A DNA stretch of 64,000 bases, taken from assembly GCA_009914755.4 (NCBI GenBank), contig CP068257.2, positions 21,760,001 to 21,824,000 on the forward strand. Direction: 5' to 3'. Below the pieces are notes generated by a model. That model saw only the letters and a program-made list of their open reading frames with translations, was not told the origin of the DNA and searched no databases. Both the position numbers and the translations under genes were made by a program. Source of the stretch: the human T2T-CHM13v2.0 reference genome, Homo sapiens. This document shows, piece after piece, positions 38,812 to 39,913 of the stretch; position 1 is the first letter of the stretch; every line of letters begins with the position of its first letter.

Positions 38812-38849
<38 letters not shown>
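38812..38849. repeat. (GT)n microsatellite abutting inverted repeat 2
   Basis: cgtgtgtgtgtgtgtgtgtgtgtgtgtgtgtgtgtgtgta. Confidence 0.95.
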
Positions 38850-38850
<1 letters not shown>

Positions 38851-38851
<1 letters not shown>

Positions 38852-39108
38852 CTCATAGGAAAACCGGTGAATGAAACTGTGGCTCTCAAAGTTACGGAGA
38901 GTGAGAATGTATAAGTCCCCCAAATCCCTTGCCTTTCTGGTAAAATAACTGAGGCATATTCTACACAGACTCTCAGTGGCGCCCAGAGGGATGAAGCCAC
39001 AGCTGCTCTCACGAGGACCCTGCTTATTACCACATCTCATATTTCATCCCTTCCCTCTGCTACTTCCCACTCTTCTACAAGTGCTTCCTGGGATCCCTTC
39101 CTGAGTAA
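38851..39108 (+). repeat. Inverted repeat 2, arm 1 (about 258 bp)
   Basis: Reverse complement of 39649-39913 at about 93% identity. Because of this the track shows mirror-image ORFs (38765-39040 minus and 39719-39973 plus, both MRCGNKQGPRESSCGF..). Confidence 0.85.
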
Positions 39109-39648
39109 GCTATATACATTTTATATATATATAAAAGGTATATGGGTATGTATATAAAATGAGTATTAAAATATATAGGGCTCCTCTTCAAGGCATTGAG
39201 AATCAAAGTAACATAAAACCTCATGTGATAAAAAAGACATTAAGCAATTAGATTTTTCCTTTAAGTCGTAAACTGTTCCTCTGTCAAAGGGAAAGTAGGA
39301 AACACTAACTTGCCCTAAAACTAACGGAGACTCTGAAACCTAATGTTATAGTCTCTTCTCTTTGCTGACTACACAAGATAGTCAGAAAAGAAGAAGCAGA
39401 AAATATTAAATCCATGTAGCTAAACATAATATGCTTGGGGGTGGAGGGCAGAGAAAGAGCAGGAGGAGGACTGGTTATAAAAATAAGTAATGCCAAAGTG
39501 TGATTTTGCTCCTCACTAAGTGTCAAGTATTCTAGGCTCTTTCCTGATATTTATTGTAAAAAAAATACTAAATGTAAATGTGTTGTTCAAGACCTGATTC
39601 CCATTAGGAAATGCAACACTCAAGCTACTTCATGATGATATGGAAGTA

Positions 39649-39913
39649 GCTTGCTCAGGAAGGGATCCCGGGAAGCACTGGTAGAAGAATGGGAAGTAGC
39701 AGAGGGAAGGGATGAAATATGAGATGTGGTAATAAGCAGGGTCCTCGTGAGAGCAGCTGTGGCTTCATCCTTCTGGACGTCACTGAGAGTCTGTGTAGAA
39801 TATGCCTCACTTATCTTACTAGAAAGGCAAGGGATTTGGGGGACTTATACATTCTCACTCTCCATAACTTTGAGAGCCACAATTTGATTCATCAATTTTC
39901 CTATGATCAACAC
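39649..39913 (-). repeat. Inverted repeat 2, arm 2
   Basis: gcttgctcaggaagggatcccgggaagcac...ttgagagccacaatttgattcatcaattttcctatgatcaacac is the reverse complement of arm 1. The spacer is about 540 bp. Confidence 0.85.

What the first reader, a model, noticed from the sequence alone, without database searches (positions are those of the whole stretch)
38812..39913. Second long inverted repeat (about 260-bp arms, 540-bp spacer) that generates mirror-image pseudo-ORFs
Arms 38851-39108 and 39649-39913 are 93% identical in inverted orientation. A (GT)19 run lies immediately outside arm 1. The two 84-91-aa ORFs in the supplied track (MRCGNKQGPRESSCGF.. on opposite strands) are simply the same sequence read from each arm, so they are not evidence of a gene. 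The arm sequence is unrelated to inverted repeat 1 and to anything else in the window. Candidates are a non-autonomous DNA transposon with unusually long TIRs, or a local inverted duplication.
Basis: seen in the sequence. Interest (0 to 1): 0.5.

Follow-up and report, generated by a model that had tools for sequence, protein, structure and literature searches.

The report
Old local inverted duplication in primate DNA
A stretch of about 270 bases in primate non-coding DNA was copied backwards about half a kilobase from the original, most likely by a DNA-copying slip; it is real but ordinary, and the two small "genes" read from it are mirror-image artefacts.

Summary
The inverted repeat is real. 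Its arms are 38845-39112 and 39647-39914: 268 nt, no gaps, 92.9% identical (93.8% over the 260-bp core), BLAST E about 1e-113. A perfect (GT)19 abuts the left arm. The two ORFs are the same sequence read from each arm, differ almost only by non-synonymous changes, and have no homologue.

Three things are new:
- The right arm ends in ACACA, so the copy runs 5 nt into the GT tract.
- The left arm is split. After a 508-bp block (39113-39620) it resumes as CAAGCTACTTC and pairs perfectly with the start of the right arm.
- YAAGCTA lies on both sides of that block. Deleting the block plus one 7-mer gives one continuous 272-bp hairpin with an 11-nt loop.

No target-site duplication exists at the outer ends and no second copy exists in the window. 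Per-arm divergence (about 2.6% at non-CpG sites) matches the AluY copies in the window, so the repeat looks younger than the end of primate DNA-transposon activity.

Best reading (about 0.5): a local fold-back or template-switch duplication that stopped in the (GT)n tract. Rivals are a palindrome later split by an insertion, and a palindromic DNA transposon. No primate genome or repeat library was available, so family membership is untested. Interest is low.

The parts
38812..38849 (.). Perfect (GT)19 microsatellite abutting the outer end of the left arm. Its last 5 nt (TGTGT) are inside the repeat, mirrored by ACACA at 39910-39914.
   Evidence: TRF: period 2, 19 copies, 100%; arm alignment starts at TGTGT.
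38845..39112 (+). Left arm, taken here as the source copy: 268 nt, 47.5% GC, non-coding.
   Evidence: blastn 92.9% over 268 nt, no gaps, against 39647-39914 reversed; composition; mismatch list.
39106..39112 (+). TAAGCTA, the last 7 nt of the left arm. First copy of the 7-nt direct repeat that brackets the 508-bp block. The T at 39106 is an arm mismatch; the right arm and the second copy have C.
   Evidence: Sequence; mismatch 39106/39653.
39113..39620 (.). 508-bp block between the arms (spacer), 33.5% GC like the flanks. It starts with a TA-rich, partly palindromic stretch (39112-39166), has no terminal inverted repeats and no A-tail, and has no similarity to anything else in the window.
   Evidence: (I4, I6, I9).
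39621..39633 (+). Resumption of the left arm: CAAGCTA (second copy of the 7-mer) + CTTC + AT. This is the left half of a perfect 11-bp mini-hairpin.
   Evidence: the repeat finder I10: 39621-39631 / 39643-39653, 11 nt, 100% complementary, 11 nt apart. Deleting 39106-39620 gives one continuous 272-bp stem.
39632..39642 (.). 11-nt loop (ATGATGATATG) at the symmetry centre of the reconstructed palindrome.
   Evidence: DNA fold of the reconstructed 555-nt sequence.
39643..39914 (-). Right arm, taken here as the inverted copy: 272 nt. It comprises GAAG + the reverse complement of the left arm + ACACA, then joins the right flank (AGCAGGACC...).
38765..39040 (-). 91-aa pseudo-ORF read from the left arm that runs out through the GT repeat (HTHTHT...).
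   Evidence: no homologue; no Pfam.
39719..39973 (+). 84-aa pseudo-ORF read from the right arm, the mirror image of the one above.

Best explanation
This is a locus-specific inverted duplication made by a replication or repair error, not a mobile element and not a gene.

Inferred ancestral order: left flank, (GT)n, segment A (about 263 bp ending ...CCTGAG-CAAGCTA), about 508 bp of ordinary AT-rich DNA, CAAGCTACTTCATGATGATATG, right flank (AGCAGGACC...).

Inferred steps:
1. A 3' end stalled or broke after ...GATATG.
2. It snapped back on its own strand and copied about 11 nt (GAAGTAGCTTG).
3. It slipped on the 7-nt match CAAGCTA to the other copy 515 nt upstream, at the inner end of A.
4. It copied A backwards for about 261 nt.
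5. It fell off 5 nt into the (GT)n tract and was joined to the right flank.

The net result is a 272-nt reverse-complement insertion (39643-39914). Since then the two copies have drifted apart neutrally by about 6.5%, which is AluY-era, roughly 20-30 million years unless gene conversion has slowed the divergence.

Shown: the repeat, its exact limits, the GT overlap, the mini-hairpin, the 7-mer on both sides of the spacer, the absence of an outer target-site duplication, the neutral ORF differences, and the composition.
Inferred: the direction (which arm is the copy), the order of the switches, and the dating.
For: The repeat is 268-280 nt with no gaps. Its outer end lies inside the (GT)19 that flanks the left arm: the right arm ends ACACA and then unrelated DNA follows. 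A perfect 11-bp hairpin with an 11-nt loop sits exactly at the inner junction of the right arm (I10). My estimate for such a hairpin arising by chance at a given junction is of the order of 1e-4. YAAGCTA lies on both sides of the 508-bp block, and removing the block plus one copy restores one continuous 272-bp stem. No direct repeat of 4 bp or more flanks the outer ends for any of 14 x 16 boundary choices. The spacer's composition (33.5% GC) matches the flanks (29-33%), while the arms are 45-47%. There is no other copy of arm or spacer in 64 kb, although the window holds 15 Alus. Non-CpG divergence is 5.2% pairwise, about 2.6% per arm. That sits within the AluY range in this window (0.9-3.9%) and below every AluS (4.5% or more). 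DNA transposons had stopped moving in primates by about 37 million years ago (PMC8277862 citing Pace & Feschotte 2007). Template switching is documented to create new inverted repeats in human and ape genomes (PMC5453318). Snap-back on 5-9-bp inverted repeats 3-12 bp apart can prime palindromic duplication (PMC7999016).
Against: No primate genome, orthologue or repeat library could be consulted, so the number of copies genome-wide is unknown. Documented germline template-switch events are mostly tens of bases long, whereas this one copies about 270. The arms are clearly GC-richer than everything around them, as an inserted element would be. Both ends of the left arm coincide with simple repeats, which could hide a target-site duplication. 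The mismatches are mildly clustered (outer 45 bp against the rest, Fisher p = 0.04; an 81-bp identical run, p = 0.03). Gene conversion may therefore have kept the arms similar, which would make the age argument against a transposon weaker. The two-switch path is one of at least two histories that fit the same anatomy.
Confidence: 0.5

Rival explanations
1. Two-step local history. A fold-back event first made a nearly perfect palindrome (2 x about 272 bp with an 11-nt loop). Later a 508-bp piece of DNA (39113-39620) was inserted 11 bp from the centre, duplicating 7 bp of target (CAAGCTA). That widened the spacer and stabilised the structure.
For: There is a 7-nt direct repeat (6/7, the odd base being an ordinary arm mismatch) exactly at both ends of the block. 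Arm continuity is restored perfectly when the block and one copy are removed. Composition changes sharply at the left junction, where a TA-rich, tail-like stretch lies next to the repeat. Short-spacer palindromes are unstable and longer spacers stabilise them (PMC7999016).
Against: The block has no hallmark of any insertion class that makes 7-bp duplications. It has no A-rich tail on either strand, no terminal inverted repeats and no TG...CA ends, and it has no similarity to the Alu consensus sequences or to any other sequence in the window, including its L1-like stretches. Its composition equals that of the native flanks. It needs two rare events at one spot.
Confidence: 0.2
2. A non-autonomous DNA transposon. 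Either it has about 270-bp terminal inverted repeats and a 0.5-kb core, or it is a 555-bp palindromic MITE/foldback-type element later split by an insertion. It would have been inserted as a unit, with arms identical at insertion.
For: It is a discrete unit whose arms are GC-richer than the flanks. The arms match without gaps along their whole length. Palindromic MER elements exist in mammals (PMC5424272). The left target-site duplication could be hidden by growth of the (GT)19. Gene conversion could make the arms look young.
Against: No target-site duplication of 4 bp or more exists for any boundary choice, with or without the GT run. In particular there is no TA, TTAA or 8-bp duplication. 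The arm ends show no superfamily motif that I can recognise (my own knowledge). A GTGGCTCTCAAAGT stretch that recalls hAT-Charlie ends lies 30 nt inside the arm, so it is not a terminus. There is no second copy in 64 kb. No predicted protein anywhere overlaps a copy in any frame. Per-arm divergence is AluY-like, later than the roughly 37-million-year stop of primate DNA transposition. The palindromic MER consensus sequences listed in PMC5424272 are 114-197 bp, not about 555 bp.
Confidence: 0.2
3. Two independent insertions of the same short (about 265-bp) interspersed repeat, in opposite orientation about 530 bp apart. It could be a small solo LTR or a retroposon with a (CA)n tail.
For: The arms are GC-richer than the spacer and flanks, and the spacer looks native. 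Both copies end in AC repeats in the unit's orientation. In that orientation the unit contains TG...CA-like ends.
Against: Neither arm has its own target-site duplication (checked by eye on the sequence). The 11-bp hairpin and the 7-mer at the inner junction are left unexplained. At 93-94% identity the family would have to be as young as AluY, and I know of no 265-bp family of that age in primates (my own knowledge, not tested). There is no third copy in the window.
Confidence: 0.05

Closest known systems
Template-switch / fold-back (snap-back, MMBIR-type) inverted duplications, as described by the four-point model in human-chimpanzee comparisons (PMC5453318) and by fold-back priming models (PMC7999016)
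   Same: A reverse-complement copy of nearby sequence is placed a short distance away. There is a short hairpin at the switch point, a few bases of microhomology, no target-site duplication, and one end lies in a hard-to-replicate simple repeat.
   Different: The copied tract (about 270 nt) is much longer than the tens of bases typical of the germline events catalogued. It also seems to need two successive switches. The event itself is inferred, not observed against an outgroup.
Palindromic MER/MITE DNA transposons of mammals (for example MER53, MER5A1, MER117; PMC5424272)
   Same: Hairpin-forming inverted halves in a discrete unit within non-coding DNA.
   Different: Those consensus sequences are 114-197 bp, are present in hundreds of copies, have target-site duplications and are much older. 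Here the unit is 555-1070 bp, no target-site duplication is detectable, no other copy was seen, and divergence is AluY-era.
Inverted Alu pairs and other closely spaced inverted repeats studied as fragile or dsRNA-forming sites
   Same: Arm length (about 270-300 bp) and arm identity (about 90%) are similar. Both could form a long hairpin if single-stranded or transcribed: the RNA fold pairs the arms along almost their whole length.
   Different: The arms are not Alu and not any repeat present elsewhere in the window. The 534-bp spacer makes hairpin or cruciform formation in DNA unlikely (spacer effect, PMC7999016).

Membership tests
Class II (cut-and-paste) DNA transposon, non-autonomous, long TIR or palindromic MITE | Terminal inverted repeats | tested here: met
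   268-nt inverted arms at 92.9% identity. However, any inverted duplication meets this.
Class II (cut-and-paste) DNA transposon, non-autonomous, long TIR or palindromic MITE | Target-site duplication directly flanking both ends (TA, TTAA, 3 bp, or 8-9 bp according to superfamily) | tested here: not met
   No direct repeat of 4 bp or more (or 7+ bp with one mismatch) for 14 left x 16 right boundary choices, including a boundary outside the GT run. No TA/TTAA pattern by inspection. Caveat: the (GT)19 may have overwritten the left flank.
Class II (cut-and-paste) DNA transposon, non-autonomous, long TIR or palindromic MITE | Multiple dispersed copies in the genome / a consensus in Dfam or Repbase | not testable with these tools
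   No primate genome or repeat library is available. Within reach: 0 further copies in the 64-kb window, 0 proteins overlapping a copy in any frame, and no true hit in the bacterial, metagenome or viral collections. Those collections may hold no primate DNA; no Alu was found in the viral one.
Class II (cut-and-paste) DNA transposon, non-autonomous, long TIR or palindromic MITE | Age compatible with the period of DNA-transposon activity in primates (older than about 37 million years) | tested here: inconclusive
   Per-arm non-CpG divergence is about 2.6%, AluY-like and below every AluS in the window. Mild clustering of mismatches leaves gene conversion possible.
Template-switch / fold-back inverted duplication | Reverse-complement copy of adjacent sequence with no target-site duplication | tested here: met
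Template-switch / fold-back inverted duplication | Short inverted repeat or microhomology at the switch points | tested here: met
   11-bp perfect hairpin with an 11-nt loop at the inner junction, and the 7-nt CAAGCTA at both candidate switch sites. The outer junction lies in (GT)n.
Template-switch / fold-back inverted duplication | Ancestral (outgroup) state carries one arm and the spacer only | not testable with these tools
   Needs orthologous sequence from other primates.
Protein-coding gene (the two ORFs) | Homologues, a domain, or purifying selection | tested here: not met
   No homologue, no Pfam domain, 11 non-synonymous against 2 synonymous differences between the copies.
Known structured RNA / miRNA hairpin | Match to an Rfam family | tested here: not met
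   Nothing on the arms at E up to 1. The only nearby hits are a weak SCARNA7 hit (E 0.02) running from the left flank through the GT run to 38887 in the left arm's outer end, and a chance-level mir-316 hit in the spacer (E 0.67). The gathering-threshold scan of the whole window found only a Y RNA elsewhere.

The most novel reading that the evidence does not exclude
The 555-bp palindrome (or the whole 1.07-kb unit) is a copy of an uncatalogued foldback-type DNA transposon that was still mobile in catarrhine primates in the AluY era, after DNA transposons are thought to have gone silent about 37 million years ago. A weaker alternative is that the locus is transcribed and its roughly 265-bp hairpin is a source of endogenous double-stranded RNA or siRNA.
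Probability: 0.04. Interest if true: 0.6.

Novelty: new member of a known kind. Interest (0 to 1): 0.15.

Why it matters
It matters little in itself. It is one more neutral inverted duplication in AT-rich, gene-poor primate DNA, and the ORFs it creates should not be annotated as genes. Its modest value is as a clean, fossil example. The junctions of a fairly long (about 270-nt) fold-back or template-switch copy are still legible: a snap-back hairpin, a 7-nt microhomology, and a stop inside a (GT)n tract. That links microsatellites to the end points of such events, and it could be dated and checked easily in primate alignments.

Tried and rejected
- **Protein search, arm ORF.** The 84-aa arm ORF found nothing.
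- **Protein search, all frames.** A concatenate of every open stretch of 20 aa or more from all six frames of both arms gave 8000 word candidates, none with E <= 0.01.
- **Exact-pattern scans.** I used four different 20-26-mers taken from stretches identical in both arms. Bacterial/archaeal genomes gave 0 and then 2 hits; both hits are 20-21-nt chance matches with no extension. Metagenomes gave 0 and 0. Viral contigs gave 0. An Alu 34-mer also found nothing in the viral set, so that negative carries no weight. The other negatives carry little weight.
- **Rfam.** Nothing was found on the repeat.
- **Extended homology.** I looked for similarity between the flanks, spacer and arms. All scores were within the shuffle range. 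The 11-mer AAGTAGCTTGC at 38618 is therefore treated as chance.
- **Outer target-site duplication.** None was found.
- **Resemblances recalled from memory.** GTGGCTCTCAAAGT in the arm recalls MER5/Charlie ends, and CAGGACCCCAAC just right of the repeat recalls hAT ends. The first lies 30 nt inside the arm. The second does not match within 3 mismatches. Both were dropped.
- **L1 twin-priming, two solo LTRs, assembly artefact.** Rejected because of the equal gapless boundaries, the absence of per-arm target-site duplications and of an A-tail, and the 7% arm divergence.

Full report
**What the window is.** It is AT-rich primate DNA, 34% GC overall. It holds at least 15 Alu copies of the J, S and Y subfamilies. 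It also holds an alpha-tubulin processed pseudogene, a Y RNA-like pseudogene and L1-like sequence just to the right of the finding (recognised from my own knowledge). No functional gene was seen near the finding.

- The repeat finder reports arms 38845-39124 and 39635-39914: 280 nt, no gaps, 91%.
- With stricter scoring the alignment is 38845-39112 against 39647-39914: 268 nt, 92.9%, E 2.7e-113.
- The 260-bp core is 93.8% identical, with 13 transitions and 3 transversions, K2P 0.065.
- A perfect (GT)19 lies at 38812-38849.
- The arm, the spacer and the flanks have no other copy in the window.
- The two ORFs are the same sequence read from each arm. They are 53/63 identical. The nucleotide differences fall 11 in non-synonymous codons against 2 in synonymous ones. 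There is no Pfam domain and no homologue for any of the six frames. They are not genes.

1. The repeat overlaps the microsatellite. The left arm's alignment starts at the last TGTGT of the GT run, and the right arm ends ACACA (39910-39914) before unrelated sequence begins.
2. The left arm is interrupted rather than ended. Strict homology stops at ...CCTGAG-TAAGCTA (39112). A 508-bp block follows. At 39621 the sequence CAAGCTA-CTTC-AT appears and pairs perfectly with GAAG-TAGCTTG at 39643-39653, which is the first bases of the right arm. This is an 11-bp stem with an 11-nt loop (I10).
3. YAAGCTA therefore stands on both sides of the block. The single differing base is an ordinary arm mismatch at 39106. 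Deleting 39106-39620 gives a 555-nt sequence that folds as one uninterrupted 272-bp stem with an 11-nt loop.

Base composition separates the parts. The arms are 45-47% GC, the block is 33.5%, and the flanks are 29-33%.

**Tests of the transposon idea.**
- No direct repeat of 4 bp or more flanks the outer ends for any of 14 x 16 boundary choices, with or without the GT run. No TA or TTAA pattern is present.
- The arm ends carry no superfamily motif that I can recognise. Two resemblances recalled from memory did not survive checking (position inside the arm).
- For dating I used the window's own Alus as a clock. Non-CpG divergence from consensus is 0.9-3.9% for AluY, 4.5% or more for AluS and 11-15% for AluJ.
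- The arms differ at 5.2% of non-CpG sites, about 2.6% per arm. That is AluY-era.
- DNA transposons are reported to have lost activity in primates before the last roughly 37 million years (Pace & Feschotte 2007, as cited in PMC8277862). A transposon whose arms were identical at insertion should therefore show at least AluS-like decay.
- The caveat is that the mismatches are mildly clustered: 6/45 at the outer end against 10/215 elsewhere (p = 0.04), and an 81-bp identical run (p = 0.03). Arm-to-arm gene conversion cannot be ruled out.
- The palindromic MER consensus sequences listed in one survey are 114-197 bp (PMC5424272), far smaller than this unit.

**Best explanation.** A local fold-back or template-switch duplication accounts for every junction.
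1. A 3' end stalls or breaks after ...CTTCATGATGATATG.
2. It snaps back on its own strand and copies CAAGCTACTTC, giving GAAGTAGCTTG.
3. It re-anneals through the 7-nt TAGCTTG/CAAGCTA match to the second CAAGCTA, 515 nt upstream.
4. It copies the GC-richer segment backwards.
5. It dissociates five bases into the (GT)n tract and is joined to AGCAGG....

This is the kind of event formalised for human and ape genomes by the four-point template-switch model, which creates new inverted repeats (PMC5453318). It also matches fold-back priming on inverted repeats as short as 5-9 bp that are 3-12 bp apart (PMC7999016). It differs from the catalogued germline cases in length: about 270 nt against tens.

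I give the class 'local inverted duplication' about 0.7 in total. Of that, about 0.5 goes to the single-event path. About 0.2 goes to the alternative in which a near-perfect palindrome formed first and was later split by a 508-bp insertion with a 7-bp target duplication. The insertion variant is attractive because of the textbook flanking repeat. It is weakened because the block shows no tail, no terminal repeats, no LTR ends and no relative in the window, and because it has native-like composition.

**What could not be done.** None of the sequence collections reachable here contains primate genomes. The arm scans of bacterial, metagenomic and viral contigs gave nothing beyond two 20-21-nt chance matches. 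An Alu probe found nothing in the viral set either. They are what would decide between the readings, and explicit predictions are given under next steps.

**Function.** None is indicated. If the locus were transcribed, the RNA would fold into a hairpin of about 265 bp, with MFE -606 kcal/mol for the 1070-nt unit and the arms paired along almost their whole length. It has no Rfam relative and there is no sign of constraint. With a 534-bp spacer and 7% mismatch, hairpin or cruciform formation in DNA should be rare (spacer effect reviewed in PMC7999016).

**Verdict.** This is a real, statistically unambiguous inverted repeat. It is most probably an old, neutral, locus-specific inverted duplication whose junctions still record how it was made. 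The ORFs are artefacts. Novelty and interest are low.

Noticed in passing
window 4809-5462 (minus strand): A 217-aa ORF with a strong Tubulin_C match (Pfam E 6e-37) and alpha-tubulin-like sequence, with an adjacent overlapping ORF. It looks like a processed alpha-tubulin pseudogene fragment.
   Followed up: partly
window 29382-29483 (minus strand): Y RNA match just above Rfam's gathering score (40.9 bits against 38). It is probably one of the many Y RNA retro-pseudogenes in primates.
   Followed up: no
window 25990-26290: An almost pure A/T tandem array (unit of about 31 nt, ...ATAATATATTATATTATATAATATATATTAC...). It scores as a zero-spacer palindrome (arms 26007-26140 / 26141-26274, 84%). It lies in the 26% GC trough of the window and is possibly the kind of AT-rich palindromic tract that is fragile.
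   Followed up: no
window 40324-40636: An AluS-like element on the plus strand, with an A-rich/(CAAA)n tail and a clear target-site duplication CTATAGTCCT (40314-40323 and 40637-40646). It is inserted into L1-like sequence that continues to about 41640. A sub-threshold mir-3135 hit lies inside the Alu.
   Followed up: partly
window 33583-33666 and 44357-44399: Two further (GT)n/(AC)n microsatellites. These are the only sequences in the window that match the left flank of the finding.
   Followed up: no
window 53836-54433: Two AluY copies in tandem on the same strand. One is only 0.9% diverged at non-CpG sites, the youngest repeat seen in the window. It is useful as a local clock.
   Followed up: partly
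window 38853-38897 versus 38898-39112: Arm mismatches are denser in the outer 45 bp (13%) than in the rest (4.7%), and one 81-bp run is identical. This may reflect mutagenic microsatellite flanks, a complex mutation at ACCGGT/ATTGAT, or partial gene conversion between the arms.
   Followed up: partly
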